From Gammaproteobacteria bacterium (GTDB taxonomy: Bacteria; Pseudomonadota; Gammaproteobacteria; Eutrophobiales; Eutrophobiaceae): DNA of 64,000 nt. Positions 46,996 through 63,147 of the stretch are shown piece after piece. The notes under the pieces were generated by a model. That model ran no database searches. It was not told the DNA's origin and saw only the letters and a list, made by a program, of their open reading frames with translations. Within the stretch, counting starts at the first letter, position 1, and every line of letters starts with the position of its first letter. A program made the position numbers and the translations under genes. The stretch lies in NCBI GenBank assembly GCA_965116495.1, contig OZ220696.1, forward strand, positions 1,696,001 through 1,760,000. Reading direction: 5' to 3'.

Positions 46996-47108
46996 AATTT
47001 GGGACACCCATAAATTCACGGGCATATTAAATTTGGGACACCCATCATATTAAATTTGGGACACCCATAATTTTACACACTTATTTAATTTATGGGTGTC
47101 CCAAATTT
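46996..47108. repeat. AATTTGGGACACCCAT cluster (3 direct copies + 1 inverted)
   Basis: Read directly from the sequence between convergent genes. Confidence 0.85.
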
Positions 47109-48391
47109 CAGACCTGCGCCAGGACGTCTTCCAGTACGGATAAAAGTAAATCCGCGTTGTCTTTTGAAAACGGCAGGGGAGGCCGCATCTTCAATACGTT
47201 GTCGTACACGCCTACGTTGCTGATCAGTATCCCTTTATCTTTCATGGCGTTGACGACGTGTTTGGTCTCATCCCGCGCCGGTGTCTTTTGCTCCTGGTCA
47301 GTCACCAGTTCGACGCCGATGAACAGACCGTGGCCGCGCACATCGCCGATGAGGTCATGTTCGGCCTGCAAGCTGCGCAATCCGTCTCTTATATACTCGC
47401 CCACGATCCGGGAGTTTTCCTGCAGGTTTTCCTGTTCGATGACATCCAGCACCGCCATGCCCACCGCGCACTGCACCGGGTTGCCCCCGAAAGTATTGAA
47501 ATACATAACCTGTTCCCGGAAATTATTCACCAGGTCGGCGCGGGCCACTACCCCGCCGACCGGGTGCCCGTTGCCCATGGGTTTGCCCATGGTGGCGATA
47601 TCCGGCGTAACGCCGCCTACCTGGTAGCCCCACATTTTCCTGCCGGTGCGGGCGAAACCGCACTGCACCTCATCGGCGATGTAGAGGCCGCCGGCAGCGC
47701 GTACATACTCCATAGTCTGTTCCATGTAACCGGGCGGGACGCTGGGCAAGCCCTCATTGGCGAAGATGGAACAGATCAACATGCCGGCGAAACCGGTGCC
47801 GTCTTCCTCGAACTCATCGATGGCCTGTTTTACCCTTGCTGCGTATGCGGCGGCCAGGGCCTCGCCCGCCAGGCCGTCCAGGGGCCGGTAGGTCTCCGGG
47901 AAAGGTACGGTTTTTACATTCGGGCTGGGGGATTCACCGCCATGGAAGATAGTGGACAATTCATCTACCGCCGTGGTATTGCCGTGGTAAGTGAAGTTGG
48001 TACAGATAATGCCCTGTTTGCCGGTGGCCCGGCGCGCCATGCGCAGGGCGATCTCGTTGGCCTCACTGCCGGTGCAGACGATGAAGGCCATGGACAGGGG
48101 TTCGTTGTGCAGGGTAGTCAGGCGCTCTGCATATTCCAGCACCAGTTCGTGCAGGTAGCGGTTATGGACGTTCAGGGTCTGTGACTGCCGGTACAAGGCC
48201 TCAACCACGTGGGGATGGCAGTGCCCCACGTTGGGCACGTTATTGTACACGTCCAGGTATTTTTTCCCGTCAGCGTCGTACAGCCAGACGCCCTCGCCCC
48301 TGACGATATGCACCGGTTCATTGTAGAACAGGGGGGCGCCAGCGCCCAGCAGGCGGTAGCGCCGCTCCAGGAGTTGTGTGTCAATTGTCAT
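47108..48391 (-). CDS. Class III PLP aminotransferase (AGXT2/PHYKPL-like)
   Basis: YLDVYNNVPNVGH, GSEANE, ADEVQCGFAR, MGKPMGNG (PLP Lys), FNTFGGNP. Confidence 0.92.
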   Translation of the reverse strand: MTIDTQLLERRYRLLGAGAPLFYNEPVHIVRGEGVWLYDADGKKYLDVYNNVPNVGHCHPHVVEALYRQSQTLNVHNRYLHELVLEYAERLTTLHNEPLSMAFIVCTGSEANEIALRMARRATGKQGIICTNFTYHGNTTAVDELSTIFHGGESPSPNVKTVPFPETYRPLDGLAGEALAAAYAARVKQAIDEFEEDGTGFAGMLICSIFANEGLPSVPPGYMEQTMEYVRAAGGLYIADEVQCGFARTGRKMWGYQVGGVTPDIATMGKPMGNGHPVGGVVARADLVNNFREQVMYFNTFGGNPVQCAVGMAVLDVIEQENLQENSRIVGEYIRDGLRSLQAEHDLIGDVRGHGLFIGVELVTDQEQKTPARDETKHVVNAMKDKGILISNVGVYDNVLKMRPPLPFSKDNADLLLSVLEDVLAQV

Positions 48392-48420
48392 TTTTTTCAA
48401 TGACAATTTACCAACCATTT

Positions 48421-48517
48421 CGTCATTCCTGCGGATGCAGGAATCCAGCGAAATAAAGAGTCTCCCCTTGGATGACACACTATCATACCGGATGCCGGTT
48501 CAAGCCCGGCATGACGA
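48421..48517. repeat. Inverted pair of CGTC-type REPs
   Basis: CGTCATTCCTGCGGATGCAGGAATCCAG ... CCGGATGCCGGTTCAAGCCCGGCATGACG. Confidence 0.75.
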
Positions 48518-48527
48518 ACCTGGGACG

Positions 48528-49994
48528 TCATAACGGTCCTGCTCCCCCTTTCAACTTTTCTACTTCCCGCCGGATCACGTCGATGGCCAGGTCAACGGTA
48601 TCGATGTGGGTGCGGTATGACAGGATGCAAAGCCGGAGCATGTAAATATTATCGATCAGGGTCGAGGTAAGAACGATCGTGCCGTCGCGCCGCAATCTCT
48701 CTACCAGTCTCCTGTTGAACTCATCCACATCACCTTCGACACCGACATAACGGAATACGAAGATGGACAACTGGGGTTCGGGGCCGACCTCAAAACCGGG
48801 CATTGACTGTAATCTCTTCCAGGCATAACGGGCCAGCAGCAGCTTCTCGCTCAGCATGGCGCGGAACGGTGCGACGCCTATGAGTTTGAGCGGCAACCAC
48901 AGGCGCAAGGCGCGGAAATGGCGGGTCAACTCCGGGCTTACGTCCGCGGGCGAGACTTCCTGATCGTGGAAAGCCCTGTCCTGCAGGTAGTCGGCTGTAT
49001 AATAATGCGCCTGGTACAAATGCCTGCCATCCCTGATCAGTGCCGCACCCAGGCCGAACGGTGTGTGCAGTCCCTTATGCGGGTTCATAACCACCGAATC
49101 CGATAGCTCGATCCCGCGGAATTGTTCCCTGACCAGATCGCAAAGGATAAAGAAACCTCCGTAGGCCGCGTCCACGTGAAACCAGAGCCCATGCTCGCGC
49201 GTCACCGCGCCGATGCATTCCAGATCGTCAACGTTGCCAAGGTCCGTGGTGCCGGCCGAACTGACCACCAGCCACGGATCAAGTCCTGCGGAACGGTCGG
49301 CGCGAATCATCTCCACCAGGGCGTCCGGGTCCATGCCGAAATCTGCATCGGTGGCTACTTCGCGCATGACACCGCCGCCCAGGCCGGCGATGTGCAAGGC
49401 CTTGGCAACGCAATGGTGGGTAAAACGGGTGTAATACACCACGGCCCGAGTGTATTTCTCGGCTTTCAAACCATGGGCTTCCCTGGCCGTAACGATACAG
49501 GTCAGGGTAGCGATGCTGCCCCCCGAGGCCAGTACGCCTTTCGCCGTTCCCCGGCGATAGCCCACCAGTTCCGCCATCCAGTCCAGCAACTGGTATTCCA
49601 TGCGCACCGCACCGGGTGAGCTGGCAAACTCACCGGCATATTCGTCCATCACCGCCGCCATGTAATCGCCCAGGGCCGAGTAGTACATGCTGCACGGGGA
49701 TATATAACCGAAGAACTTGCCGGATACGGCACATAACGCCTGTTCGTCAACATTTTCCTTGTAGATACGCAGGATTTCCCCGATCTCCATGCCCTCTTCA
49801 GCAATGGGAGAATCATACAGGCCGGCACCCATATCCTCGGTAAAGTTAAACGCCGGACGCTGAGGGAGGTCGTGCAGGAACTGTTCGACGTAATCATTCA
49901 CCGCGCCCAGCAACTCCTTACGCCGCGCCGCACCCGGTTCGATAACGCCTGCCTGTTCCGAGAACTCGTTGATTTGTCTGATCAATTCTTCCAT
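48528..49994 (-). CDS. Group II PLP-dependent decarboxylase (aromatic amino acid decarboxylase-like)
   Basis: SGGS, AGTT, FHVDAAYGG, DSVVMNPHKGL (PLP Lys), ELTRHFRALRLW. Confidence 0.9.
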   Translation of the reverse strand: MEELIRQINEFSEQAGVIEPGAARRKELLGAVNDYVEQFLHDLPQRPAFNFTEDMGAGLYDSPIAEEGMEIGEILRIYKENVDEQALCAVSGKFFGYISPCSMYYSALGDYMAAVMDEYAGEFASSPGAVRMEYQLLDWMAELVGYRRGTAKGVLASGGSIATLTCIVTAREAHGLKAEKYTRAVVYYTRFTHHCVAKALHIAGLGGGVMREVATDADFGMDPDALVEMIRADRSAGLDPWLVVSSAGTTDLGNVDDLECIGAVTREHGLWFHVDAAYGGFFILCDLVREQFRGIELSDSVVMNPHKGLHTPFGLGAALIRDGRHLYQAHYYTADYLQDRAFHDQEVSPADVSPELTRHFRALRLWLPLKLIGVAPFRAMLSEKLLLARYAWKRLQSMPGFEVGPEPQLSIFVFRYVGVEGDVDEFNRRLVERLRRDGTIVLTSTLIDNIYMLRLCILSYRTHIDTVDLAIDVIRREVEKLKGGAGPL

Positions 49995-50030
49995 TTTATA
50001 CTTAACGACATAAATAGCGCCGCATCATAG

Positions 50031-50170
50031 TTCGTCATTCCGGCGCCCCGTTCGTCATTCCGGCACCCCCGTCCGTCATTCCGGCGGAAGCCGGAATCAA
50101 GTAATATACAAACATTCCTTATAAGGAGTTTTGTTGTCTACTAGATTCCGGCTTCCGCCGGAATGACGAA
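50031..50170. repeat. CGTC-type REP cluster (three tandem heads + inverted partner)
   Basis: CGTCATTCCGGC x3, the last complete (..GGAAGCCGGAATC), and inverted GATTCCGGCTTCCGCCGGAATGACG at 50144-50168. Confidence 0.85.
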
Positions 50171-50193
50171 CAGGAGGAGGCGGTTCATTTTAT

Positions 50194-51939
50194 TCAGGCA
50201 GCGGCGCCCTGCTCGAACAGGCTGTCGCGCAGGGGCGGTTTTGTCTTGGCCAGAACGCAGACTTCCGGGGGAATATCGAACACCAGTGCATGGTCGGGAC
50301 CGATGCCCTCCTCGCGCAGACAATCGGCTATATTATCGTCCACCTCGGTAAACCCGGCCCGACGATTAAACTCCCATTCATCTTCCAGGCACTGCCAGCC
50401 CAGGTCGACAATCTGCCGGCGCGTCACCTCTTCGCCGTAAAACAGGCTGTAACAGCGGCGTATTTCATCAAGGTTGGGCTGCATGAACTGGCATAGGCCG
50501 GAAGAGTCGCATACGGCATTGACGATCTGCGCATCCTGGGACGCGCGTACCGCATCTTCTCCGGCCAACTCGGGGTCGATTACCAGGCCGGCGGTGTGAT
50601 CCGCGCCCATGGCGCTGGTGGCGTAAGTCACGCCTGCGGCCTTCAGCGGGCGCGGGTCCCAGGCCGGCAGGGCCTGTCCTTTTGCCACGGGGATACGGGA
50701 GTGGTTGCGGTGCGTGCCGATAGACAGGGCCCCGTCACCCACCAGCCGGCCGATTTCCGTACCGTTGCCGACATCATTACGTAACAAAATCTTTACTGCG
50801 TCCGCATCGCCCCATTCCATGCCGCCGGAATCCATGTACACGGCAATGGCCGCGCCCGTCTCTATGGTATCCATCCCCAGTTCATCACAGAGTCGGTCCA
50901 GGTCGGCAACGTCCTCCCAGTTATTTATCGCACAACAGGAACCCAGCAGGGTCAGGGTCTCAAACTCCAGAGCGGAGGTCACGTAATTGCCGGACTCGTC
51001 ATGAATGATGTTGGAACAGCGGACAATGCAGCCGGCCATGCAGTTGTGCATCCCACCGCCGCGTTCTGCGAACGCCTCATGGATGCGGGCTCCATCCAGT
51101 TTATCCACATCCGGGTTCCTGCCCTCGGTCCGGTTCTTGTAGGGAAATGTGTGCAGCATGTTGGCCATGGGGACACCGGTGCTGGTACCGCCCTTGAATA
51201 TATTGTGGCGGCCGTCACTTAAATAGCTCTGGCTGAAGGTCTTGTTATTTGCGTTAAAGGCCTTGTTGTCCGCCGACGCTCTGAGACGCGCCTTGCCCCG
51301 GTCTATCAGCACCCATTTCAGGCACTTGGAACCCATCACCGCGCCGACCCCGCCGCGCGCGGCATGGCGCGCAGGCCGCCGCCCCTTGCTCTTGTCGGTG
51401 GTAGCAACGGAGGCGGTCTTCAGCATCATCTCGCCGGCGGGGCCGATGCTGATCGCACAGGCGTTTTTGGAACGCCCGGCCAGCAGCTTCTCGCAACTGA
51501 CATAGTTCCACATGCCCTTGTAGTCATCCGCGCCGATCAGTTCCACACCCTCTGCCGTCACCGCCAGCCCCCAGCGCCGCTCCCGGTCTGCAGGTTGGCC
51601 GGTTACGACGATGCCCCGGTAACCCAGTTTCATCAGGTCCTGGCCCGGCTCGCCACCGGTATTGGCCTCCTTTATCCCACCGGTAAGGGGGCTTTTACAG
51701 CCTACGGACAAACGTCCCGAAGTGGGCACCGAAGTGCCTGACAACACGCCCGGGGCCAGCACCAGGATGTTATCCGGACCCAGGGGGTCACATGCGGGGT
51801 CGCACTCATCCAGCAATATCCGCGCAGATAGGGAACGCCCACCCAGGTATTTCCAGTCTGCCGGATAATCCTCAATCGAAACGGTCAAAGCCGTCATATC
51901 GACACGGATCAGCTTGTCGTTGTCCCAAACACCGCTCAT
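50194..51939 (-). CDS. Aldehyde:ferredoxin oxidoreductase family (tungstopterin, 4Fe-4S)
   Basis: KSPLTGGIKEAN, IGPAGE, AARGGVGAVMGSK, CMAGCIVRC, CDELGMDTI, GADHT, DSSGLCQF; GAGGAG RBS before ATG 51939. Confidence 0.92.
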   Translation of the reverse strand: MSGVWDNDKLIRVDMTALTVSIEDYPADWKYLGGRSLSARILLDECDPACDPLGPDNILVLAPGVLSGTSVPTSGRLSVGCKSPLTGGIKEANTGGEPGQDLMKLGYRGIVVTGQPADRERRWGLAVTAEGVELIGADDYKGMWNYVSCEKLLAGRSKNACAISIGPAGEMMLKTASVATTDKSKGRRPARHAARGGVGAVMGSKCLKWVLIDRGKARLRASADNKAFNANNKTFSQSYLSDGRHNIFKGGTSTGVPMANMLHTFPYKNRTEGRNPDVDKLDGARIHEAFAERGGGMHNCMAGCIVRCSNIIHDESGNYVTSALEFETLTLLGSCCAINNWEDVADLDRLCDELGMDTIETGAAIAVYMDSGGMEWGDADAVKILLRNDVGNGTEIGRLVGDGALSIGTHRNHSRIPVAKGQALPAWDPRPLKAAGVTYATSAMGADHTAGLVIDPELAGEDAVRASQDAQIVNAVCDSSGLCQFMQPNLDEIRRCYSLFYGEEVTRRQIVDLGWQCLEDEWEFNRRAGFTEVDDNIADCLREEGIGPDHALVFDIPPEVCVLAKTKPPLRDSLFEQGAAA

Positions 51940-52046
51940 ATCAGTCTCCTCGGCTATTGCAAGTCGGCTTATTATCACCAGTGCAACACTGATAGTCCAA
52001 CACTTTGTACTAACCCAGGTACGCTTGCTGTTTGCACGTGGAGCGC

Positions 52047-52148
52047 AAATTTGGGACACCCATAAATTAGTGGAACGCAAATTTGTTGTTGGCGAATTTA
52101 TGGTTGTCCCAAATTTGTTCGGCCCGAATTTATGGTTGTCCCAAATTT
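52047..52148. repeat. AAATTTGGGACA(C/A)CCATAAATT cluster (1 direct copy + 2 inverted)
   Basis: Same unit as 46996-47108, in the divergent AOR/P450 intergenic region. Confidence 0.85.
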
Positions 52149-52201
52149 GTTGCTGTTAGCAAAACGTAGCCTGCCCCTTTTTAACGAGGTAGTATGACAA
52201 T

Positions 52202-53425
52202 ATGCAGGACAAAAAACAGAAAGTATCCGTCGCGGACTTCAGCCTCACCGATTTGCCCGATGATTACTACGAAGACCCCTATCCCTACTACCATGCATTG
52301 CGGGAACAGGATCCCGTACGCCGCTTTGCGGACGGCAGCTACTTCTTTACCCGTCACGCCGACCTGTTCCGTATCTATCGCGACCCGAAACTGTTCAGCT
52401 CCGATAAAAAGAAGATGTTCAAACCCCTGTTCGGGGACACATTATTATATGAGCACCATACCACCAGCCTGGTATTTAATGACCCGCCGCTACATACCCA
52501 TGTACGCAAGGCAATCGGCGATGCCCTGTCGCAGAAGACCCTGATTGCCATGGAACCGGGTCTGCGTGAATTCACCGCAGGATTACTGGACAGCATCGAA
52601 GACAAGGGAGAGTTCGACGCGATGTCCGATTTTGCCACCCTTATCCCAGTCGAGGTGATCGGTAACCTGTTACGCCTCCCCCGTGAGGATCGCGGGATGC
52701 TGCAGCGCTGGGCGAACGCCATACTGGGCGCGCTTGAATTTGACCTGTCGAAAGAAAAGCTGGAGTACGGGAACCGCTGTGTCAGCGAATTCCTGGACTA
52801 TCTCGCCGATCTGGTGAAGGACCGCCGAAAAAACCTTTCCGATGATTACGACGATATATTGAGCCGGTTGATAAAATGGGAATCCGATGGTTTTGTATTA
52901 TCCGATAAACAGCTTTATCACCAGTGTATTTTCATACTGAATGCCGGTCATGAAACGACCACGAATCTCATCGGCCACAGTATCTATTGTTTGCTTACCC
53001 ACCCGGACCAGTTGCAACTGCTGAAACAGAAGCCTGAATTAGCCGGTTCCGCCATCGAAGAGATCCTGAGATATGAGGCGCCGGTACAACTCGGCAACAG
53101 GGCAACCACCGAAGCGGTGCAATTCGATGACGTCAGCATACCGGCCGGGAAGACCTTGACCTTCGCCATCGGCGCGGCAAACAGGGACCCCGCCGTGTAC
53201 CCTGAGCCCGACCGGCTGGACATTACCCGCAATCCCCGCAACCACATGGCCTTCGCCGGCGGCATTCATACCTGCGCCGGCCTCAACGTGGCGCGACTGG
53301 AAGCGCGCATTGCCGTCCCGGCGCTGCTCAACCGCTTCCCCGGCCTGACCTTGACCGGCAGGCCGGTACGAGACAAACGTGCCCGTTTCAGGGGCCTGCT
53401 GTCATTGCCGATGTCCATTCGCTGA
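52202..53425 (+). CDS. Cytochrome P450
   Basis: I-helix AGHETT, ExxR (EILR), heme motif FAGGIHTCAG. Confidence 0.95.
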   Translation: MQDKKQKVSVADFSLTDLPDDYYEDPYPYYHALREQDPVRRFADGSYFFTRHADLFRIYRDPKLFSSDKKKMFKPLFGDTLLYEHHTTSLVFNDPPLHTHVRKAIGDALSQKTLIAMEPGLREFTAGLLDSIEDKGEFDAMSDFATLIPVEVIGNLLRLPREDRGMLQRWANAILGALEFDLSKEKLEYGNRCVSEFLDYLADLVKDRRKNLSDDYDDILSRLIKWESDGFVLSDKQLYHQCIFILNAGHETTTNLIGHSIYCLLTHPDQLQLLKQKPELAGSAIEEILRYEAPVQLGNRATTEAVQFDDVSIPAGKTLTFAIGAANRDPAVYPEPDRLDITRNPRNHMAFAGGIHTCAGLNVARLEARIAVPALLNRFPGLTLTGRPVRDKRARFRGLLSLPMSIR

Positions 53426-53459
53426 TTAATAAGATGCGTGGGGTCAGAGTAGGCGCACA

Positions 53460-53903
53460 TCAAAATTCCTGCACACTTAACTTATCAAGCAATCTCTCCA
53501 GTTGCGATTGTTCCTGCTCCGTCAACGCGGCTTTCAACTCCGCCTCATAAGTCAGCGCCAGGGGGACAATCTGCGCGTACATGGCGTAACCTGCTTCGGA
53601 CAGGCATAAAATTGAGCGGCGCCGGTCATCTCCGGAAAAATTACGCTTGAGCAATCCCTTGTTGAGCAGTTTTGTCACCGCCCGGCTAACCGGCACCTTG
53701 TCCATTTCGGTCTCGCTGCAAACGTCATCGGCGGACAGTCCCGGCTGCTGGCCAAGCATAGCCATCACCCGCCACTCGGGAATACTCAATCCGAATTTCT
53801 CCGAGTAGAGCCGGAAAAAGGAAGCGCTGATGCGGTTGGTAACGATGGACAACCGATAAGGCAGGAACTCCTTCAGGTTCAGTCCCGGGTTCTGCTGGCT
53901 CAT
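53460..53903 (-). CDS. MarR-family transcriptional regulator
   Basis: FLPYRLS, EWRVMA, MDKVPVSRAV, DRRRS..LSEAG; downstream of hmgA. Confidence 0.92.
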   Translation of the reverse strand: MSQQNPGLNLKEFLPYRLSIVTNRISASFFRLYSEKFGLSIPEWRVMAMLGQQPGLSADDVCSETEMDKVPVSRAVTKLLNKGLLKRNFSGDDRRRSILCLSEAGYAMYAQIVPLALTYEAELKAALTEQEQSQLERLLDKLSVQEF

Positions 53904-53975
53904 GCTGCTTTTCGAAGCAAAATCAAAGGGGCCAGACTCATTTGATTTTTCCGGCGCCGAAATGGTATCCGTTAA

Positions 53976-55310
53976 TCAGGATTTAAAGTGTTTTTTCAGC
54001 TTCTGCCAGCAGTCAACATAATTCCGCTGCCGTTGCGCCGACTCCAGGGCGAAGCGGGTCGGCTGGATCACGTAGCGGGACTCGAACATGAAGGCCATGG
54101 TTGCCTCCTGCTTGACCGGCGCCAGTCTGGTCTTGGAAGAGCCTTCGAAAGCCGTTTCGTCAGGGCCGTGGGCGGACATACAATTGTGCAGGCTGGCGCC
54201 GCCCGGCACGAATCCTTCCGGTTTGGCGTCATACTTGCCGTAAATCAGGCCCATGAACTCACTCATGACGTTGCGGTGGTACCAAGGCGCCCGGAAAGTA
54301 TCTTCAGCCACCATCCAGCGCGGCGGAAAGATCACGAAATCCACGTTGGCGGTTCCCGGTGTATCGGAGGGTGAAGTCAATACCGTATAGATGGACGGGT
54401 CAGGATGGTCATAACTGACCGTATTGATCACGTTGAACAACTCAAGTCCATATTTATATGGCACTGAATTGCCCACCCAGGCAACCACATCCAGGGGTGA
54501 GTGATCGATGGCGCAGCCATGCAGCCTGCCGGAAAACTTGCACACCAGTTCGAACTCGCCCTGTTGGTCCTGGTAGGCCGCAACCGGCGCCTTGAAGTCC
54601 CGATCATTGGCGAACCCATCGGAACCGACGGGCCCGCGTTCCGGCAGGCGGAAATGGGCGCCGTAGTTTTCACAAACGTACCCGCGGCCGGGTCCGTCGG
54701 GCAAGTCCACGCAGAACTTCATCCCGCGCGGGATCAGCGCGACCTCCCCGGGCTGCACGTCAAGCCGGCCGCATTCCGTATGGATATCCAGCCTCCCCTG
54801 CTGCGGCACGATCAGTAGCTCGCCGTCCGCGTCGTAGAAATAGCGGCCCTCCATGGAACGGTTCGCCAGGTAATAATGAATGCCGCAACCGACCTGCGTG
54901 GCCGCGTTGCCGTTGGCGGCAAACGTCACCAGGCCATCGATGAAATCAGCCGGCGTGTCTGGTATCGGGATGGGGTCCCAGCGCATCTGGTTGGGTGGCG
55001 GCGCTACATCCATGATGGGTCCGTTAAAGATGCGCGACTGCTCCAAGGGACGGAAATCGCCATGCGTCACCGAGGGCCGGATACGGTAAAACCAGGTGCG
55101 GCGGTTCGATTCCCGCGGCGCGGTGAAGGCGGTGCTGCTGAGCTTCTCCGCGTACAACCCGTAAGCCACTTTCTGCGGGGAAAACCTGCCCTGGGGCAAG
55201 GCCCCCGCCAGGGCCTCGGATTCATGCTCATTGCCGAACCCGCTCAGGTATTCATATGCCTCGGCGGTTTCCGCAACTTCTGCTACTCTTGGGCTGACAA
55301 CTGTTGCCAT
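53976..55310 (-). CDS. hmgA: Homogentisate 1,2-dioxygenase
   Basis: [60 protein letters not shown]. Confidence 0.97.
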
Positions 55311-55342: not shown

Positions 55343-55366
55343 GTATAGTTACAAATGTAACTAATT
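55343..55366. promoter_or_regulatory. Palindromic operator (likely MarR) inside the hmgA promoter; left copy of a 24-bp direct repeat
   Basis: TAGTTACA-AA-TGTAACTA; minus-strand TTTACA-N18-TATACT spans it. Confidence 0.75.
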
Positions 55367-55396
55367 GTAAAGAAACCTTCGACCCCGGCGCCTATT

Positions 55397-55478
55397 CGTC
55401 ATTCCTGCGCAAGCAGGAATCCAGTAAAATTAGCGAAGATACGATAACAGACAGGTTCCTGCTTACACAGGAACGACA
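55397..55478. repeat. CGTC-type REP with degenerate inverted partner
   Basis: CGTCATTCCTGCGCAAGCAGGAATCCAG ... GGTTCCTGCTTACACAGGAACGAC. Confidence 0.7.
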
Positions 55479-55522
55479 GAAACTACTAATGACAAGTTGT
55501 TTTCACCCGCGAACACAACAAC

Positions 55523-56359
55523 ATGGCCGCGGCCCGGGCGTTCGACCAGGCCGATGAACTGGCCGCGTTCCGCACCGAATCCACCTTTCCGACCAATATC
55601 GAGGGTGAACCATTACTGTACTTCGCCGGCCACTCGCTGGGCCTCATGCCCAACCGCGCCCGCGAGGCGCTGAATGCCGAGTGCGACGCCTGGGGCAAAT
55701 ACGCCGTCAAAGGGCACTTTGAATCCGAACGACCCTGGGTACGCTGTCACACCTATGTCGCGGACAGCCTGGCGCGCCTCAGCGGCGCCAAACCGTCCGA
55801 AGTGGTGGCGATGAATACGCTCACCGTCAACCTGCACCTGATGCTGGTCAGTTTTTACCGTCCGACGAAAACCCGTTACAAGATCATCATCGAAAAAAAC
55901 GCTTTCCCGTCGGACCAGTACGCGGTCGATTCACAGGCCCGTTTTCACGGGTTTTACCCTGATGACGCCATTGTCGAACTTGAGCCGAAACCGGGACAAC
56001 CGGCCATAGCCGATGATGACGTCCTGGAACTGTTCGATGCGGCTACCATGCCCAGGGTGCGCGCGAAGAGCGAACAACTGACTTCGTACCTGGAATGGCT
56101 TTTGCTGGAGAACGTCAGCGACTTCGTAGAGGTGCTGACGCCCCCACACACACTGGCAAAACAGACCCGCGGCTGTACCTTGTCGCTACGCTTCAAGAAA
56201 GACCCCAGGGGGATGTTGAAAGTATTATCTGACCGGGGCGCAGTCACGGATTTCAGGGAGCCGGATATCATCCGCGTCGCGCCCATCCCCCTGTATAACA
56301 GCTTTGAGGATGTGTACCGATTCAGTGAGATTGTGGCGGAGTTCTGCAGTAACGGATAA
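55523..56359 (+). pseudogene. kynU: Second kynureninase with in-frame internal deletion of the PLP-lysine region
   Basis: YFAGHSLGLMP, EVVAMNTLTVNLHLMLVSFYRP, AFPSDQY and C-terminal DFREPDIIRVAPIPLYN present; DLAH and YKY motifs absent; only 278 aa. Confidence 0.85.
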
Positions 56360-56502: not shown

Positions 56503-57093
56503 TTGAAGATGATTGAGGCATTAAAATATATCGCTTCCATTCAGACCGGGCTGACTTTCCGTACTCGTCTTGAGCATTCGCCAAAAGGTAATATTACGGT
56601 GATTCAGATGAAGGACTTCAGTGCTGACAACCGCGTTGCCTTTGAAAAACTCACCCTTATAGAGATACAGAATTTGAAAGAACGTCAAATGGTACAAATT
56701 GACGATCTGATATTCCGCCCCCGAGGTTTCAGGAATACTGCAGCACTGGTAAGCCGAGAGCTCAACGACACAACACTAGCCGCCCCCCTGTTACGTGTAC
56801 GGGTACATGATGCAACTGTTTTGCCGGCGTATCTCTGCTGGTTCATCAACTTGCCGGTATCTCAGTCTTTCCTGCAAAGACACGCCAACGGCACAGCCAT
56901 GAAAATGATCGGCAAGAAAGCCCTGGAAGCACTTGAGGTGCTTATTCCATCCGTTCCGACACAACAACGCATCGTTGAATTAAGCCACCTTGCTGACAGA
57001 GAGCAAAACATACTTGAGAGTTTGTCAGTAAAACGCAGGCAATTAGTGGATAGCAGATTAATGCGGGTCATAACAACTTCGCGTCATCCGTAA
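56503..57093 (+). CDS. hsdS: Half-size type I R-M specificity subunit (single TRD)
   Basis: One TRD (IQMKD..DDLIF..YLCWFIN) plus conserved P..TQQRIVEL helix; 196 aa; upstream of hsdM. Confidence 0.8.
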   Translation: MKMIEALKYIASIQTGLTFRTRLEHSPKGNITVIQMKDFSADNRVAFEKLTLIEIQNLKERQMVQIDDLIFRPRGFRNTAALVSRELNDTTLAAPLLRVRVHDATVLPAYLCWFINLPVSQSFLQRHANGTAMKMIGKKALEALEVLIPSVPTQQRIVELSHLADREQNILESLSVKRRQLVDSRLMRVITTSRHP

Positions 57094-57118
57094 GCAAGCC
57101 CAAACGGCAGAACAAACA

Positions 57119-58627
57119 GTGATCAAAGTACAACAAAAAGACATTAACAAAGCCGCCTGGGATGCCTGCGACACATTCCGTGGAGTGCTGGACCCGGCAC
57201 AGTACAAGGATTACATCCTGGTCATGCTTTTTGTGAAATACATCTCCGATATATGGAACGACCATTATGAAACCTACCGCAAGGAATACCGGGATGATGA
57301 AGTACGCATCCGCCGCCGTTTGCAACGCGAACGATTTGTTCTTCCTGAAGGCGATAGTTTCTATGATCTTTACGAAAGCCGTAATGAGGCCAATATCGGT
57401 GAGCTAATCAATACCGCTCTGGACGCCATCGAAACCGAGAACAGACTGAAACTGGAAGGATTGTTCCGTAATATCGATTTTAACTCTGAGGCTAACCTCG
57501 GCAAAACCAGTGATCGTAACCGTCGCCTGAAAACCCTGCTTGAAGACTTCAACAAAGCGGAACTTGACATGCGCCCCAGCCGGGTTCCCGGAGATGTTAT
57601 AGGCAACACCTACATCTACCTGATCGAGCGTTTTGCCTCTGATGCGGGCAAGAAGGCAGGAGAGTTCTATACCCCACACAAGGTCTCCGAACTGGTGGCG
57701 AAACTGTGCGCGCCAAAGCCGGGCGCCCGCATCTGCGACCCGGCTTGCGGGTCAGGCGGTCTTTTGATAGAAGCAGCGCAGGTGGTAGGCAACAATGATT
57801 ATGCGCTCTACGGCATGGAGGTCAACGGCAGTACCTGGGCGCTGGCCAGGATGAACATGTTTTTGCATGGCGCAGATGCTGCCCGAATAGAATGGTGCGA
57901 TACCTTGACTGCCCCTGCGCTGGTAGAAAACGACCGCCTGATGACATTCGACAACGTGGTCGCCAATCCACCATTTTCATTGAAAAAGTGGGGCGCCGAA
58001 GCCGGCAGTGAAGATCCGTATAACCGCTTCTGGCGCGGGTTGCCCCCGGTCTCCAAAGGTGATTTTGCCTTCATCAGTCACATGATAGAAATCGCCGTTG
58101 GAAACAGGGGCCGTGTCGCGGTAGTCGTCCCCCACGGCGTCCTGTTTCGAGGCGCTGCGGAGGGCCGCATAAGACGTAAGCTGATTGAAGACAACCTGCT
58201 CGATATGGTAATCGGCCTGCCTGGCAACCTGTTCCCTACTACCAGCATCCCGGTCGCAATCCTGATATTTGACCGCTCCCGCGAACAGGGCGGGCTTAAC
58301 GCCGGTCGCAAAGACGTGCTCTTTGTCGACGCCAGCAAAGATTACCAGCCTGGCAAGAACCAGAACGCCCTGCTGGACGAGCACATCGAAAAGATCCTGG
58401 AGACCTGCAAAGAACGCGAGGACGTTGAAAAGTATGCACACCTGGCCGACTTTGATGAGATCGCGGAAAACGACTTCAACCTGAACATTCCGCGCTACGT
58501 CGATACCTACGAGGAAGAGGAAGAAATCGATATCGACGCGGTACAACGGGAAATTGACCGGCTTGAAGAAGAACTGTCCAGGGTACGGGTGGAAATGGCG
58601 GAGAAAATGAAAGAAATCCAAAGATGA
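57119..58627 (+). CDS. hsdM: Type I R-M methyltransferase (m6A)
   Basis: GEFYTP, DPACGSGG (motif I), VANPPF (motif IV), HGVLFRG, NLNIPRY. Confidence 0.96.
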   Translation: MIKVQQKDINKAAWDACDTFRGVLDPAQYKDYILVMLFVKYISDIWNDHYETYRKEYRDDEVRIRRRLQRERFVLPEGDSFYDLYESRNEANIGELINTALDAIETENRLKLEGLFRNIDFNSEANLGKTSDRNRRLKTLLEDFNKAELDMRPSRVPGDVIGNTYIYLIERFASDAGKKAGEFYTPHKVSELVAKLCAPKPGARICDPACGSGGLLIEAAQVVGNNDYALYGMEVNGSTWALARMNMFLHGADAARIEWCDTLTAPALVENDRLMTFDNVVANPPFSLKKWGAEAGSEDPYNRFWRGLPPVSKGDFAFISHMIEIAVGNRGRVAVVVPHGVLFRGAAEGRIRRKLIEDNLLDMVIGLPGNLFPTTSIPVAILIFDRSREQGGLNAGRKDVLFVDASKDYQPGKNQNALLDEHIEKILETCKEREDVEKYAHLADFDEIAENDFNLNIPRYVDTYEEEEEIDIDAVQREIDRLEEELSRVRVEMAEKMKEIQR

Positions 58628-59517
58628 ATGAAAACAGGTTCAATTTGTCCACTCATCACATTGAGCAATACATTTTTGATCTGCGAGGCATACAAGTCAT
58701 GGTGGATAGAGACCTGGCAATGTTGTACGGGGTGCCAACCAGGAGATTAAATGAGCAGGTTAGCAGAAACAGGGAACGCTTCCCTGATTCCTTTATGTTT
58801 CAATTGAGCAAAGAGGAAAAAAATGAACTGGTCGCAAATTGCGACAGGTTAAATGGTATGAAGCATTCATCAACGTGCCCTTACGCGTTCACCGAACAGG
58901 GAGTCGCTATGCTCTCTGCGGTACTGCACAGTAAGACAGCGGTGGAGGTCAGCATACAGATCATGCAGACCTTTGTAGGAATACGTAAATTTATTTCCTC
59001 TCATGCAGGGCTTTTTCAACGTCTGGAAAAGATTGAAAAAAAACAGCTGGAAACCGATCAAAAGTTTGAACACATATTCAGTGCTCTGGAGGGCAAAACG
59101 CTTATTCCCAGTCAAGGTATCTTCTATGACAGGGAAATCTTTGACGCCTACTTTCTTGTCATCAAATTGATAAAAACCGCCAACACGTCCATCGTGCTGA
59201 TTGACAACTATATTGATGAGACTGTTCTTCTCATGTTAAGCAAACGGCCCAAAGGAGTTGAAGCCACCATCTATACATCGAAGATTACTAAAACCCTTCA
59301 AAACGATCTTAAAAAGCATAACAGCCAATACGCCCCCGTTACCGTTAAAATTTTCAGAAAAGCCCACGACCGTTTCCTGGTGATTGACACAAAGACTGTT
59401 TACCACATCGGCGCCTCGCTTAAGGATGCAGGTAAAAAATGGTTTGCTTTTTCAGAAATAAATCTGGACGCAAACGAAATGATAACGAGGATACAAACAG
59501 AGGGATGTCATGGATAG
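58624..59517 (+). CDS. ORF6N-domain protein with C-terminal PLD-like domain
   Basis: RGIQVMVDRDLAMLYGV..NEQVSRNRERFP..FMFQL..PYAFTEQGVAMLS (ORF6N); IDNY..HDRFLVID..HIGASLKD. Confidence 0.85.
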   Translation: MNENRFNLSTHHIEQYIFDLRGIQVMVDRDLAMLYGVPTRRLNEQVSRNRERFPDSFMFQLSKEEKNELVANCDRLNGMKHSSTCPYAFTEQGVAMLSAVLHSKTAVEVSIQIMQTFVGIRKFISSHAGLFQRLEKIEKKQLETDQKFEHIFSALEGKTLIPSQGIFYDREIFDAYFLVIKLIKTANTSIVLIDNYIDETVLLMLSKRPKGVEATIYTSKITKTLQNDLKKHNSQYAPVTVKIFRKAHDRFLVIDTKTVYHIGASLKDAGKKWFAFSEINLDANEMITRIQTEGCHG

Positions 59518-59538
59518 GAAAAAAGGGCACGAGTAGTG

Positions 59539-59674
59539 ATGAATAACAGTGCCGTTAAAGACATGGTTTTGCCGAACGGGTTGTTGAAAACTCTCACTGC
59601 AGACAATTGTTCAGAGTGGAAGCACTACAAAAGTATGAATTTATTCGAGAGTCTTTCAAGAAGAGGATATAGCA
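59539..59674 (+). pseudogene. Probable remnant of full-length hsdS
   Basis: LPNG..SEWKHYKSMNLFE resembles HsdS conserved boundaries; lies where hsdS is expected between hsdM and hsdR. Confidence 0.4.
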
Positions 59675-59821
59675 ATGCTGCGTGTAGAAAAACGGTTGGA
59701 GTATTACAACGCCCTGGACCAGGCGCATACCCAAAACGACTATCAGCCATTCTTATCTTTAATAATAGAAATCGTCGAGCTTAGTTTCCAGCCCTACTGG
59801 CACGCATTAAACATCAAATAA
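59675..59821 (+). pseudogene. C-terminal remnant of a Fic-family protein
   Basis: LRVEKRLEYYNALDQAHTQNDYQPFLSLIIEIV..YW*; R..YY.AL..A is typical of the post-active-site helix; the HPFxDGNGR motif is missing. Confidence 0.6.
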
Positions 59822-59830
59822 GGCGAACTG

Positions 59831-62800
59831 ATGCCCGACTTCAAATTCAACGAAAAATACCTCTCCCAGATCCCGGCCCTGCAACAACTGATCAACCTGG
59901 GTTTTGAATACATAACCCCGGAGCAGGCGCTGGCCCAGCGCGGTGGTCAGCTTATCAACGTTTTGCTGGAGGATACTCTGCGGGAGCAGTTAAAGCGCAT
60001 CAACCGTATCCATTACAAAGGTAGCGAGTACCAGTTCAGTGAGGAGAACATCCAGTCGGCGATCCGGAAAATCAGGAATATCCCCTACCAGGGCCTGCAA
60101 AAAACCAATGAGGCAGTGTATGACCTGCTAACGTTGGGTGTTGCCTTGGAACAGGCAATCGAGGGCGCTTCCAAGAGTTTCTCCCTTAATTACATCGACT
60201 GGAAGCAGCTGAACAATAACCTGTTCCAGGTTACGGCCGAGTTTCCGATACTGCGCAGACACAGCGTGGAAACTGCTCGTCCGGACATCGTGTTGTTCGT
60301 AAACGGCATACCCATGGTCGTTATCGAGTGCAAAGCCCCTGACGAGAAAGTCGAGCAGGCAGTATCCCAGAACATCCGCAACCAGGGCGCTGACTATATC
60401 CCCCAACTGTTCATCTATACGCAACTGGTGATGGGAGTTAACAAGACCACAGCCTTATACGCCACTGCCGGCTCGGACGAGGAGTATTGGAGCGCCTGGC
60501 AGGAACGCGAGGATCGTGGGGATGCTGTTGAAGCCGGCATCAACACGCCGCTGACCGATGAACAGAAAAACCGGCTTTTTTCCGGGGATTTTGCCCCTGC
60601 ACGCGGCTTTTTCGATGCGCTCGAGAGTGAAAAGGGACGCCTGGGAACCGAGCAGGACAAATCGATTTACAGTCTGTGCCGTCCAGAGCGGCTGTTGGAC
60701 CTGTCCTATCGCTTTGTCGTGTTCGACAACGGCATCAGGAAAATAGCACGCTATCAACAATATTTTGTCGTGCACTCAACCATGCGGCGGCTCAGACAGC
60801 GCGACAATCAGGGTAGGCGTAAGGGTGGAATGATCTGGCATACCCAGGGGTCGGGAAAATCCCTGAGCATGGTGATGCTGGTGCGCGCATTGGCGCTGGA
60901 TGCAGGCAGGGATTCCCTGTGCATTGTGCTGGTTACAGACCGCAAGGACCTGGACAGACAGTTGGGCAACACCTTCGTTGCCTGCGGCCTGAGCCGGGAG
61001 CAGGCCACATCCGGACGCAACCTGATAAAACACCTCAGGAACAGGGTGGACATTATCACCACCCTGATTCACAAATTCGAGACCGCCCTGGCAGCGGAAA
61101 AGTACACCGATACATCTGCTGACATTCTCGTGCTGGTGGATGAAAGCCACCGCACCAATTTCGGCGAACTCGCAGCACGGATGCGGCAGATGTTACCCAA
61201 TGCCTGTTATCTCGGATTCACCGGGACTCCGCTGACAAAAGAACAGAAGAACAACTTCGCCCGCTTCGGTGAGCTTATCCAGCCTTCTTACACCATCCGC
61301 CAGGCAGTCAGCGACAAGGCGGTGGTCCCGCTGCTGTATGAAGGCCGCCACGTGGAGATGAAACAGGATAAAGCAGCCGTGGACCTGTGGTTTGCGCGGC
61401 ATACTGCCGGCTTAGACGAAAGCCGGAAGGCTGACTTGAAGAAAAAGTATGCTCGTGTGGAATTGTTGAACACTGTAGATCAAGTCGTTTATATGCGCGC
61501 CTTCGATATCAGCGAGCATTTCCGTAGCCATTGGCAAAACACCGGTTTCAAAGCCCAACTGGTAGCGCCGCTCAGGTCTGTCGCGATCAGGTATCACCAG
61601 TTCCTGAATGAACTCGACGCCGTATCCTCAGAGGTGATCATCTCGGCGCCTGACATGCGGGAAGGGCATGAGCAAATCGATAAAGAGCCAACTGACGAAG
61701 TAAACAAGTTCTGGCGATCGGAGATGAACAAATACGGTTCGGAGGACGAGCGTGACGAGCAGATCATCAATCGATTCAATGACAGCGACGAACCGGAAAT
61801 ACTGATCGTCGTAAACAAGTTGCTGACGGGATTTGATGCCCCGCGCAATACGGTGCTGTACCTCTGCTGCACCCTGCGGGAACACACGTTATTACAGGCC
61901 ATTGCACGGGTCAATCGCGTGTACCGGGACAAGGAATTCGGCTATATCATCGATTATGGCAACGTGCTTAAAGAACTGGACATGGCGCTGGCGATGTATG
62001 ACGTGCTGCAGGACTTCGACGAAGACGACCTTGCCGAATCGCTCACATCGATCAACCAGGAAGTAAACAGGCTGCCGCAACATCACTCGGATTTGTGGGA
62101 TATCTTCAAGCAGGTAGAAAATCGAAGCGATGACGAGGAGTTTGAACGACTGCTGGCCGATACCGAGCTACGAGAGGAGTTCTATGCGCCCCTGTCAGAA
62201 TACGCGAAAACACTTGCTGTCGCGTTATCATCGGAACGGTTCGTAACAACCACCGATGAAAGCGAGATGAAGCGCTACAAGGATGACCTGAAACGCTTTC
62301 AGAGACTCAGCAACGCGGCCCGTCTGCGCTACGCTGAAAGTGTGGATTTCAGCAGTATTGAGCCGCGTATCAGAAAATTGCTTGATACTCATATACAGGC
62401 AGACACAGTCACCCGGCTCAATAAGCCGGTAAACATCTTCGACGATACGTCATTCAACCGGATCAAGGATGAGCAAGGTGTGTATGGCAACCTGACAACG
62501 GCGGCCAGGGCTGACACCATAGCCCACGCCGTCAAATGCACCATCAACGAAAAGATGGATGAAGACCCGGCGTTTTATCGTAAATTCTCAGTGTTGATCC
62601 AGGAAATGATTGACTCCTCCGGAGCCAAGCGCACCAGCGATCTGGAATATCTAAATCAGGTGACACAATTACGCGACCAAGTTGTATCCCGAAGACACGA
62701 TGACGCTCCGGAGAAGCTGCGCGACAACGATGAGGCATGCGCCTATTACGGAGTGGTAAAACCTGTCTACCTGGCACACAACACGTTTTCAGGACAACAA

Positions 62801-63040
62801 CTTGACGATATGGCGGCAGACACCGCGCTTACTGCTCAAGGTATCCTGAGCGATTGCCAAAAGGTTGATTTCTGGAACGATCTGGACGCCAGGAATAGCG
62901 TTAAGAATGCCATTGACGATTACCTCCACGATGAGATCAAATATAAGCATGATGTACCCCTGAGCGTAGAGCAGATGGACGAAATCATAGAAAAACTCAT
63001 GAAGGTCGCCGAGTGCCGAAGGAGTGTATCGAATATGTAG
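59831..63040 (+). CDS. hsdR: Type I restriction endonuclease subunit R
   Basis: RPDIVLFVNG..IECK nuclease motif, HTQGSGKS, DESH, FTGTP, LTGFDAP, QAIARVNR. Confidence 0.96.
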   Translation: MPDFKFNEKYLSQIPALQQLINLGFEYITPEQALAQRGGQLINVLLEDTLREQLKRINRIHYKGSEYQFSEENIQSAIRKIRNIPYQGLQKTNEAVYDLLTLGVALEQAIEGASKSFSLNYIDWKQLNNNLFQVTAEFPILRRHSVETARPDIVLFVNGIPMVVIECKAPDEKVEQAVSQNIRNQGADYIPQLFIYTQLVMGVNKTTALYATAGSDEEYWSAWQEREDRGDAVEAGINTPLTDEQKNRLFSGDFAPARGFFDALESEKGRLGTEQDKSIYSLCRPERLLDLSYRFVVFDNGIRKIARYQQYFVVHSTMRRLRQRDNQGRRKGGMIWHTQGSGKSLSMVMLVRALALDAGRDSLCIVLVTDRKDLDRQLGNTFVACGLSREQATSGRNLIKHLRNRVDIITTLIHKFETALAAEKYTDTSADILVLVDESHRTNFGELAARMRQMLPNACYLGFTGTPLTKEQKNNFARFGELIQPSYTIRQAVSDKAVVPLLYEGRHVEMKQDKAAVDLWFARHTAGLDESRKADLKKKYARVELLNTVDQVVYMRAFDISEHFRSHWQNTGFKAQLVAPLRSVAIRYHQFLNELDAVSSEVIISAPDMREGHEQIDKEPTDEVNKFWRSEMNKYGSEDERDEQIINRFNDSDEPEILIVVNKLLTGFDAPRNTVLYLCCTLREHTLLQAIARVNRVYRDKEFGYIIDYGNVLKELDMALAMYDVLQDFDEDDLAESLTSINQEVNRLPQHHSDLWDIFKQVENRSDDEEFERLLADTELREEFYAPLSEYAKTLAVALSSERFVTTTDESEMKRYKDDLKRFQRLSNAARLRYAESVDFSSIEPRIRKLLDTHIQADTVTRLNKPVNIFDDTSFNRIKDEQGVYGNLTTAARADTIAHAVKCTINEKMDEDPAFYRKFSVLIQEMIDSSGAKRTSDLEYLNQVTQLRDQVVSRRHDDAPEKLRDNDEACAYYGVVKPVYLAHNTFSGQQLDDMAADTALTAQGILSDCQKVDFWNDLDARNSVKNAIDDYLHDEIKYKHDVPLSVEQMDEIIEKLMKVAECRRSVSNM

Positions 63041-63129
63041 TCATCCATGAGTTGCGTCACCTGCTCCACCACAACCACGGCCCGAAATTCCAGCGACTGG
63101 TTGACTTGAACTGTGCCAAACATGTATAG
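63013..63129 (+). pseudogene. Remnant of YgjP/DUF45 (M48-like) metallopeptidase-fold gene overlapping the hsdR 3' end
   Basis: PKECIEYVVIHELRHLLHHNHGPKF (HExxH..HNH..F) in another frame; N- and C-termini missing. Confidence 0.75.
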
Positions 63130-63147
63130 TTACAAATGTAACTAATT
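63124..63147. promoter_or_regulatory. Right copy of the 24-bp repeat/operator, overlapping the promoter of the FAH-family gene
   Basis: GTATAGTTACAAATGTAACTAATT identical to 55343-55366; TTGACT(63101)-N18-TATAGT; GAGGAG RBS follows. Confidence 0.75.

What the first reader, a model, noticed from the sequence alone, without database searches (positions are those of the whole stretch)
47108..55310. Candidate undescribed route from aromatic amino acids/amines to homogentisate: decarboxylase, transaminase, tungsten AOR, P450, HmgA
Seen: co-oriented AOR, group II decarboxylase and class III aminotransferase; divergent P450; then MarR-hmgA, with an FAH-family gene beyond the insert. No hppD is in the window. 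Known: group II decarboxylases make arylethylamines, class III transaminases convert amines to aldehydes, AOR-family enzymes oxidise arylacetaldehydes, and fungi use P450s to hydroxylate phenylacetates to homogentisate, whereas bacteria usually use HppD or flavin hydroxylases. Inference: Tyr/Phe (or halogenated or host-derived analogues) -> amine -> aldehyde -> arylacetate -> homogentisate -> fumarate + acetoacetate, an HppD-independent pathway mixing a tungstoenzyme with oxygenases. All substrate assignments are hypothetical.
Basis: inference. Interest (0 to 1): 0.7.

Follow-up and report, generated by a model that had tools for sequence, protein, structure and literature searches.

The report
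P450 side-door into homogentisate pathway
The proposed five-gene pathway is three separate gene sets lying side by side, but one gene, a cytochrome P450 from a family for which my searches found no natural role, turns up next to phenylacetate- or homogentisate-breakdown genes in distant bacteria and likely rescues a leaked by-product (2-hydroxyphenylacetate) by feeding it into the homogentisate pathway.

Summary
All genes are real, but the 'HppD-independent five-gene route' fails. hppD lies 29 kb from hmgA, just beyond the window, and is in 17 of 22 congeners. The 'transaminase' is a phospho-lyase-clade enzyme: its best structures are phospho-lyases, and it is paired with an APH kinase in 11 of 11 loci outside the genus. 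The full five-gene linkage was seen only within one genus (14 of 19 loci fetched). marR-hmgA is the ordinary homogentisate module; its palindromic operator occurs exactly twice in the genome, before hmgA and before fah, never before the other four genes.

What survives is the P450. It is CYP195-family. In distant bacteria it sits beside hmgA (8 of 90 loci) or paa genes (12 of 90), scattered over its tree, and 13 of 14 evenly sampled carriers have paaA against 24 of 200 background. Best reading: a likely 2-hydroxyphenylacetate 5-hydroxylase that salvages the Paa epoxide leak, working like OhpA (CYP116B) without being one. The tungsten-family oxidoreductase and decarboxylase plausibly supply arylacetates. 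No chemistry is shown.

The parts
47108..48391 (-). Class III PLP enzyme of the phospho-lyase clade (A1RDF1/ETNPPL-like); likely start 48391, longest ORF to 48478
   Evidence: Best PDB hits 5G4I E 2.8e-121 and 6TOR E 7.7e-111, next hit 2e-60; Y78, R107, K430, R432, PLP K299 in 456-aa numbering; APH kinase adjacent or fused in 11 of 11 non-genus loci
48528..49994 (-). Group II PLP-dependent decarboxylase, substrate unknown
   Evidence: PF00282; best PDB 4OBU E 1.3e-57; H193, D275, K307 and loop Y336 retained
50194..51939 (-). Single-subunit tungsten-family aldehyde oxidoreductase (WOR/AOR), 581 aa; longest ORF to 52080
   Evidence: AFOR_N and AFOR_C; C300, C304, C308 and D447 invariant in 24 of 24 aligned sequences; moeA-like gene beside 25 of 79 distant homologues
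51971..51999 (-). Predicted sigma-70 promoter of the WOR-decarboxylase-lyase unit
   Evidence: Consensus match; its hexamers are kept in most of the 18 aligned intergenic regions
52202..53425 (+). CYP195-family cytochrome P450, likely 2-hydroxyphenylacetate 5-hydroxylase
   Evidence: 52% identical to a protein near-identical by eye to CYP195A1; haem C358 and E250-T251; context and co-occurrence
53460..53903 (-). MarR regulator of the homogentisate module
   Evidence: PF12802; homologue beside 24 of 40 evenly drawn hmgA genes
53976..55310 (-). hmgA, homogentisate 1,2-dioxygenase
   Evidence: TIGR01015 over cut-off
55346..55363 (.). Palindromic operator TAGTTACAAATGTAACTA between the -35 and -10 boxes of the hmgA promoter; likely the MarR site
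   Evidence: Conserved in 16 of 16 aligned hmgA upstream regions; exact match only twice in the genome; promoter 55371-55342
55523..56359 (+). kynU with an in-frame internal deletion of about 140 aa, probably dead
56503..63040 (+). Type I restriction-modification insert splitting hmgA from fah
   Evidence: different cargo or none at this spot in congeners
63127..63144 (.). Second exact copy of the operator, before fah
63163..64000 (+). Fumarylacetoacetate hydrolase (to 64155), followed beyond the window by maiA, scoA, scoB

Best explanation
The region is three gene modules side by side: an ordinary MarR-type homogentisate ring-cleavage module that likely takes its main flux from the HppD gene 29 kb away, an oxidoreductase-decarboxylase unit with a phospho-lyase-clade gene appended in this genus only, and a CYP195-family P450 that likely hydroxylates 2-hydroxyphenylacetate at C5 to homogentisate. 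Inferred flux: tyrosine goes through 4-hydroxyphenylpyruvate and HppD to HmgA, MaiA, Fah and ScoAB. Phenylalanine has no PhhA here and would go to phenylacetate and the Paa pathway. The unstable Paa epoxide leaks 2-hydroxyphenylacetate, and the P450, with a ferredoxin encoded elsewhere, would return that to HmgA. The WOR would oxidise aldehydes to acids; the decarboxylase would make an amine that one of three TTQ amine dehydrogenases, not the neighbouring PLP enzyme, oxidises. The PLP enzyme would act with an unlinked APH kinase to split an O-phospho amino alcohol into aldehyde, ammonia and phosphate. Shown: gene identities, hppD, operator distribution, clade and partner of the PLP enzyme, P450 family and contexts. 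Inferred: every substrate and every flux.
For: hppD 398 bits against cut-off 277, 17 of 22 congeners. Operator exact twice, none at 3 or fewer mismatches before WOR, P450, decarboxylase, lyase or hppD. Lyase; kinase best PDB hit 6EF6 E 5.5e-51, an aminopropanol kinase by PMC7314540; kinase kept in 21 of 22 congeners. P450 neighbours within about 8 kb: hmgA 8 of 76 and paa 11 of 76 identity-ranked loci, 0 of 14 and 1 of 14 evenly drawn loci; about 0.2 hmgA hits expected by chance in 76; 8 and 7 label changes on the tree; no P450 of any kind beside 40 evenly drawn hmgA genes. paaA in 13 of 14 carriers against 24 of 200, within 12-46 kb of the P450 in 6 of the 13; hmgA in 9 of 14 against 43 of 200. 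The Paa epoxide rearomatises to 2-hydroxyphenylacetyl-CoA (PMC7497051); CYP195A2 acts on substituted salicylates, the one-carbon-shorter 2-hydroxyaryl acids (PMC8197338 table); a P450 2-HPA 5-hydroxylase feeding HmgA is established (PMC8449657). This genome has paa genes, no gentisate dioxygenase, no PhhA and no ~780-aa P450 among its 10 P450 hits.
Against: No binding or turnover data. 68 of 90 distant P450 loci have neither hmg nor paa genes within the fetched span, though many are short contigs. In the even sample hmgA adjacency is 0 of 14. Three of 14 carriers (one family) lack any HmgA-family hit and have gentisate-dioxygenase-family hits instead. The P450 has no hmg operator and faces marR tail to tail. 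No ferredoxin or reductase is adjacent. The 14 carriers come from six families, and aromatics-rich genomes tend to hold many such genes, so the co-occurrence overstates. In congener G013 the P450 stays with the WOR while hmgA is 0.68 Mb away; in L252 it precedes ligAB-like genes.
Confidence: 0.5

Rival explanations
1. The P450 hydroxylates some other aryl acid (salicylate-, anthranilate- or benzoate-type) and its product need not enter HmgA; it sits near hmg and paa genes only because aromatic catabolic genes cluster.
For: CYP195A2 is reported on salicylates; most distant contexts are unrelated; three carriers have gentisate-type rather than HmgA-type dioxygenases; kynU sits in this cluster in most congeners; L252 has ligAB-like genes downstream.
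Against: No gentisate dioxygenase in this genome; P450-hmgA co-oriented with gaps under 250 bp in L061, L081, L109, L118; paaA in 13 of 14 carriers; no other P450 beside 40 hmgA genes.
Confidence: 0.27
2. A revised funnel: decarboxylase, TTQ amine dehydrogenase, WOR and P450 form a dedicated route for ring-substituted phenylalanines or arylethylamines (for example ortho- or meta-hydroxylated) that HppD cannot handle, the WOR supplying both the arylacetate and the electrons for the P450.
For: WOR and decarboxylase co-oriented in this genus, G024 and G425; WOR-P450 divergent pair in G425/L047 and L252 and, indirectly, nine matching contig lengths between the homologue lists (read by eye); a PRK08132-family flavin hydroxylase lies by the decarboxylase in G425 and a homologue in G024; an air-active single-subunit WOR using ferredoxin exists (PMC9424855).
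Against: Outside this lineage the WOR family has no decarboxylase (0 of 79), no hmgA (0 of 79) and the P450 once (1 of 79); the P450 family has a close WOR neighbour in 1 of 90 loci; the genome also holds a three-subunit AorABC-type enzyme; conserved order among related Gammaproteobacteria may be inherited synteny.
Confidence: 0.18
3. One reading: decarboxylase, transaminase, AOR, P450 and HmgA as one HppD-independent pathway for Tyr/Phe.
For: All five genes are linked in 14 of 19 congener loci fetched; in congener G013 (96% complete) and G017 hppD was not found.
Against: hppD present; PLP enzyme is phospho-lyase clade and lies 1.65 Mb away in G018; linkage not seen beyond the genus; no shared operator; in G013, which lacks hppD, hmgA is not linked.
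Confidence: 0.05

Closest known systems
OhpA / CYP116B 2-hydroxyphenylacetate 5-hydroxylase (Cupriavidus pinatubonensis JMP134; CYP116B234 of Rhodococcus globerulus)
   Same: P450 proposed to feed 2-HPA into HmgA; gene sometimes next to hmgA (PMC8449657, PMC11889516, passages read)
   Different: OhpA is a 783-aa self-sufficient fusion with ohpT/ohpR; this is a 407-aa stand-alone CYP195 haem domain with no adjacent redox partner, tied also to paa genes; activity untested
CYP195A (CYP195A1 of Bradyrhizobium, CYP195A2 of Rhodopseudomonas palustris)
   Same: Same family motif; 52% identity to a CYP195A1-like protein
   Different: Below the 55% subfamily line (threshold recalled); only salicylate-derivative activity is listed for CYP195A2 and no natural role appeared in my searches
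O-phosphoethanolamine phospho-lyases A1RDF1 (PDB 5G4I) and human ETNPPL (6TOR), with the HYKK/PHYKPL kinase-lyase logic
   Same: Best structural-database hits by 50-60 orders of magnitude; same Tyr, Arg and Lys-x-Arg residues; kinase partner
   Different: Kinase and SDR partners are scattered in this genome; the amino-alcohol substrate is unknown
Aminoacetone-utilisation (RMM/AAU) SDR-kinase-class III enzyme set of Mycobacterium and Rhodococcus
   Same: The genome's kinase and SDR have 6EF6 and 6CI8/6CI9 as best hits; SDR-lyase-kinase operons in L059, L060, L133, L156, L158
   Different: No shell genes beside these operons; often next to TTQ amine dehydrogenase genes; that 6CI8/6CI9 is the aminopropanol dehydrogenase is recalled, and its margin over FabG is slim
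Class I tungsten oxidoreductases (Pyrococcus AOR, Brevibacillus BmWOR) and Aromatoleum AorABC
   Same: AFOR domains, single subunit as in class I; tungstate-transporter-like genes in the genome
   Different: Roughly 30% identity to the genome's AorABC-type paralogue and distant from solved WORs (best E 4e-57); Asp aligned to the fourth Fe-S cysteine; clade and metal not determined
Homogentisate central pathway (hppD, hmgA, maiA, fah, scoAB, MarR)
   Same: Complete set present; hppD, hmgA, maiA, scoA and scoB over curated cut-offs
   Different: Split by a kynU remnant and a restriction-modification insert, with the operator present on both sides

Membership tests
CYP195 | Over 40% identity to named members (threshold recalled) | tested here: met
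   52% to L186 protein, which is near-identical by eye to CYP195A1 in the supplement of PMC8197338; the family motif occurs 18 times in that supplement, which tabulates 18 CYP195A entries
CYP195A subfamily | 55% identity or more (threshold recalled) | tested here: not met
   52%
CYP195 | Intact P450 catalytic motifs and fold | tested here: met
   C358, E250-T251, E287-x-x-R290 invariant in 27 of 27; model pLDDT 87.5, P450 fold
CYP195 | Binds and oxidises 2-hydroxyaryl acids | not testable with these tools
   Needs assay
OhpA/CYP116B | Haem domain fused to reductase and ferredoxin, about 780 aa | tested here: not met
   407 aa, PF00067 only
OhpA/CYP116B | 2-HPA 5-hydroxylase activity | not testable with these tools
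   Inferred from context only
Fungal PhacA/PhacB P450s | Sequence membership of that fungal family | not tested
   No direct comparison run; the protein falls in bacterial CYP195
Class III phospho-lyases (A1RDF1/ETNPPL) | Closest characterised relatives are phospho-lyases | tested here: met
Class III phospho-lyases (A1RDF1/ETNPPL) | Phosphate-site Tyr/Arg/Lys-x-Arg(Lys) (role of residues recalled from Cuetos 2016, not held) | tested here: met
   R107 and K430-x-R/K432 in 28 of 28 homologous loci, Y78 in 26 of 28 (Val in the two fusions); in none of 10 paralogues
Class III phospho-lyases (A1RDF1/ETNPPL) | Partner small-molecule kinase | tested here: met
   Adjacent in 9 and fused in 2 of 11 non-genus loci; unlinked but present here and in 21 of 22 congeners
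Class III phospho-lyases (A1RDF1/ETNPPL) | Phosphate elimination activity | not testable with these tools
   Needs assay
Class III omega-amine transaminases | Arg that binds the amino-acceptor carboxylate, in register near the C-terminus (recalled) | tested here: not met
   Lys430 at that column with a new Arg two residues on; no transaminase equivalog reaches its cut-off
RMM/AAU aminoacetone utilisation | SDR, APH kinase and class III enzyme together | tested here: inconclusive
   All three in the genome but scattered; operonic in relatives
RMM/AAU aminoacetone utilisation | Microcompartment shell genes | not tested
   No family search run
WOR/AOR class I | AFOR_N and AFOR_C, no adjacent small or FAD subunit | tested here: met
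WOR/AOR class I | Four-cysteine [4Fe-4S] ligation as in Pyrococcus AOR | tested here: inconclusive
   Three Cys with x3 spacing plus an invariant Asp at the fourth position
WOR/AOR class I | Tungsten content and aldehyde oxidation | not testable with these tools
   tupA, tupB, tupC-like genes present but under curated cut-offs
Aromatic L-amino acid decarboxylases (group II) | PLP Lys, His and loop Tyr of a true decarboxylase (roles recalled) | tested here: met
Aromatic L-amino acid decarboxylases (group II) | Aromatic substrate | tested here: inconclusive
   Best PDB E 1.3e-57 only; no equivalog over cut-off; some homologues carry that name automatically
Homogentisate central pathway | hppD, hmgA, maiA, fah, scoAB | tested here: met

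The most novel reading that the evidence does not exclude
CYP195 is a widespread, so far unassigned second family of 2-hydroxyphenylacetate 5-hydroxylases that bridges the Paa and homogentisate pathways. In this lineage it is wired back to back with a single-subunit tungsten oxidoreductase that makes the arylacetate and, through ferredoxin, supplies the P450's electrons, so that aldehyde oxidation pays for ring hydroxylation. A decarboxylase and a kinase/phospho-lyase pair feed aryl aldehydes in, including from beta-hydroxy arylethylamines.
Probability: 0.15. Interest if true: 0.75.

Novelty: new variant of a known kind. Interest (0 to 1): 0.42.

Why it matters
CYP195 is common (7,990 of 8,000 scored candidates at E <= 1e-80, which includes other P450 families; 14 of 400 evenly drawn phylum genomes), and my searches found no natural role for it. 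If it is a 2-HPA 5-hydroxylase, it gives the known leak of the phenylacetate epoxide pathway a fate and shows that bacteria evolved this step in two P450 families. It can be tested in cultured carriers such as Bradyrhizobium, Afipia, Nitratireductor and Ruegeria. A WOR that powers a P450 would be a new kind of redox pairing. The rest of the region is ordinary.

Tried and rejected
HppD-independence: rejected. Transaminase role: rejected. Shared MarR control of all genes: rejected. Five-gene linkage beyond the genus: not found. Gentisate route in this genome: no dioxygenase found. Decarboxylase as an aldehyde synthase: the His and loop Tyr are retained, which argues against it (rule recalled). 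Structure prediction and fold search of the P450 gave only generic P450s at 27-36% identity, no substrate clue. The Atlas search for the decarboxylase was not available. Plasmid searches gave one useful P450 context (inside a Ruegeria paa cluster); the six decarboxylase hits at 35-41% were not followed up. Primary papers on A1RDF1, the aminopropanol kinase and the Paa pathway were not held, so statements from them are recalled. Fisher tests on co-occurrence are not relied on because kin are not independent and the samples overlap. Dropped before counting: four congener loci L043-L046 from the 80-locus scan and congener L199 from the metagenome scan.

Full report
Observation. The six genes are real and correctly named at family level. 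The window lies in a 4.34-Mb single-contig genome, 99.5% complete. There are three transcription units: WOR, decarboxylase and class III PLP gene on the minus strand; the P450 alone on the plus strand; hmgA and marR on the minus strand, ending 35 bp from the P450 stop. Beyond a deleted kynU and a type I restriction-modification insert come fah, maiA, scoA and scoB.

HppD is present. TIGR01263 scores 398 bits against a cut-off of 277 at C1:1780730-1781743, 29 kb from hmgA and 21 kb past the window's end. It is found in 17 of 22 congeners. marR beside hmgA is common: among 40 of the 43 hmgA genes from an even phylum sample, 24 have the MarR homologue, 16 hppD and 14 this FAH type within about 7 kb. 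An 18-bp palindrome sits between the -35 and -10 boxes of hmgA and is kept in 16 of 16 aligned upstream regions. It occurs exactly twice in the genome, at 55346 and 63127. None of the 35 sites with up to three mismatches lies before the WOR, P450, decarboxylase, PLP gene or hppD. The hmg module is ordinary and separately controlled.

The 'aminotransferase' is phospho-lyase clade. Its best solved relatives are the phospholyase 5G4I (E 2.8e-121) and human ETNPPL (E 7.7e-111); the next hit is 2e-60. R107 and K430-x-R/K432 are kept in 28 of 28 homologous loci and Y78 in 26 of 28, and in none of 10 paralogues; their role as phosphate ligands is recalled from Cuetos 2016, which was not held. PMC8154272 (passages) confirms that phospho-lyases were the documented lyases of this class. 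Outside the genus the gene is beside an APH kinase in 9 loci and fused to one in 2, of 11 examined, often behind an SDR. This genome holds both partners elsewhere. Their best structures are 6EF6, an aminopropanol kinase by PMC7314540 (passage), and 6CI8/6CI9, recalled as the aminopropanol dehydrogenase of the RMM locus, whose gene set is described in PMC4207490 (passages). The kinase is kept in 21 of 22 congeners. In G018 the PLP gene lies 1.65 Mb from the cluster. Its place behind the decarboxylase is a genus-level rearrangement. The genome has three TTQ amine-dehydrogenase small subunits that could do the amine-to-aldehyde step.

Linkage. All five genes are together in 14 of 19 congener loci fetched. 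Two loci end at contig edges, G017 has the P450 at an edge, G018 lacks the PLP gene there and G013 lacks hmgA there. In G024, another genus of the family, three modules lie on one contig within 43 kb: WOR-X-decarboxylase, SDR-lyase-kinase and P450-marR-hmgA-fah. In G425 two WORs are divergent from the P450 with the decarboxylase 6 kb downstream, while lyase and hmgA are on another contig. Among 79 non-congener metagenome loci of the WOR family (50-73% identity, mean 8.9 kb, 44 at least 6 kb) there is no decarboxylase, no lyase orthologue, no hmgA and one CYP195-type P450; the commonest neighbour is moeA-like, 25 of 79.

The P450. It carries the CYP195A motif (supplement of PMC8197338, searched by term) and is 52% identical to a CYP195A1-like protein. 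The same paper's table lists CYP195A2 as acting on substituted salicylates. In 14 loci from an even sample of 400 phylum genomes the counts are 0 and 1. About 0.2 hmgA hits would be expected in 76 by chance. The labels change 8 and 7 times on a quick tree of 95 ingroup rows with many open forks, so the associations are not one clade. No P450 of any kind lies beside the 40 control hmgA genes. Thirteen of the 14 carriers have paaA against 24 of 200, six within 12-46 kb of the P450 (four of them one genus); nine have hmgA against 43 of 200. Two more have weak or partial HmgA-family hits, one in a joint hmg-paa cluster about 20-40 kb from the P450. The remaining three have gentisate-dioxygenase-family hits. 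Against: 68 of 90 loci show neither context, and the 14 carriers span only six families.

Mechanism. The compound that joins the two contexts is 2-hydroxyphenylacetate. The Paa epoxide rearomatises to 2-hydroxyphenylacetyl-CoA (PMC7497051, one passage), and 5-hydroxylation of 2-HPA gives homogentisate, as shown for OhpA (PMC8449657, passages) and suggested for CYP116B234 (PMC11889516, passages). Co-occurrence with paa, rather than exclusion, fits salvage better than an alternative to Paa. This genome has paa, and lacks PhhA, gentisate dioxygenase and a CYP116B-sized P450. I put about 0.5 on this reading. Air-active single-subunit WORs that reduce ferredoxin and oxidise phenylacetaldehyde and propionaldehyde exist (PMC9424855 and PMC13328260, passages), so the WOR could supply substrate or electrons. 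That step is speculative and could not be modelled.

Print. Full-text searches for CYP195 (3 papers), for 2-hydroxyphenylacetate with homogentisate and P450 (16 papers, 15 listed, seen as listing and abstract starts except the two read in passages) and for R. palustris P450s with salicylates (5 papers) showed no natural role for CYP195. Subscription papers are largely missing from the library, including the original CYP195A2 work, and supplements other than that of PMC8197338 were not read.

Verdict. A narrower lead stands: a functional hypothesis for the CYP195 family, a new variant of a known kind, easy to test.

Noticed in passing
window 55523-56359: kynU has an in-frame internal deletion of about 140 aa relative to congener L030; a second, full-length kynU-like gene lies at window 472-1713.
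   Followed up: partly
window 55346-63144: The kynU remnant and restriction-modification insert lie between two exact operator copies; congeners carry different cargo here or none, so the site looks like an insertion hotspot.
   Followed up: partly
L133, L156:8390-11498, L158:180-4888: SDR-lyase-kinase operons repeatedly lie near TTQ amine dehydrogenase genes, which may point to beta-hydroxy amines as the lyase route's substrates.
   Followed up: no
L057, L059, L060: In three distant genomes the kinase, with or without the lyase, lies within 5 kb of the CYP195 gene, directly adjacent in two.
   Followed up: no
L247:283-3083: A P450 of another family (36% identity) lies directly upstream of a WOR of this family, a second WOR-P450 pairing.
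   Followed up: no
G000:C1:1689067-1692840: A three-gene AorABC-type oxidoreductase (Fe-S, WOR, FAD subunits) lies just before the window; the genome has four WOR-family genes.
   Followed up: partly
window 52158-52202: A conserved TAATAT-like box ends 6-7 bases before the P450 start in congeners, suggesting a leaderless transcript.
   Followed up: no
window 48400-48520, 50020-50170, 52040-52150, 55400-55480: Short palindromic repeats fill the intergenic gaps; two 11-base cores occur 82 and 61 times in the genome.
   Followed up: partly
window 44327-46994: Lipoprotein with a long Pro-Glu repeat and a TbpB-like C-terminus, followed by a Slam-family gene.
   Followed up: no
L110:2137, L161:19500: Near-perfect copies of the hmg operator lie before an ABC binding-protein gene in an Afipia paa cluster that holds the P450, and at hppD in G385.
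   Followed up: no
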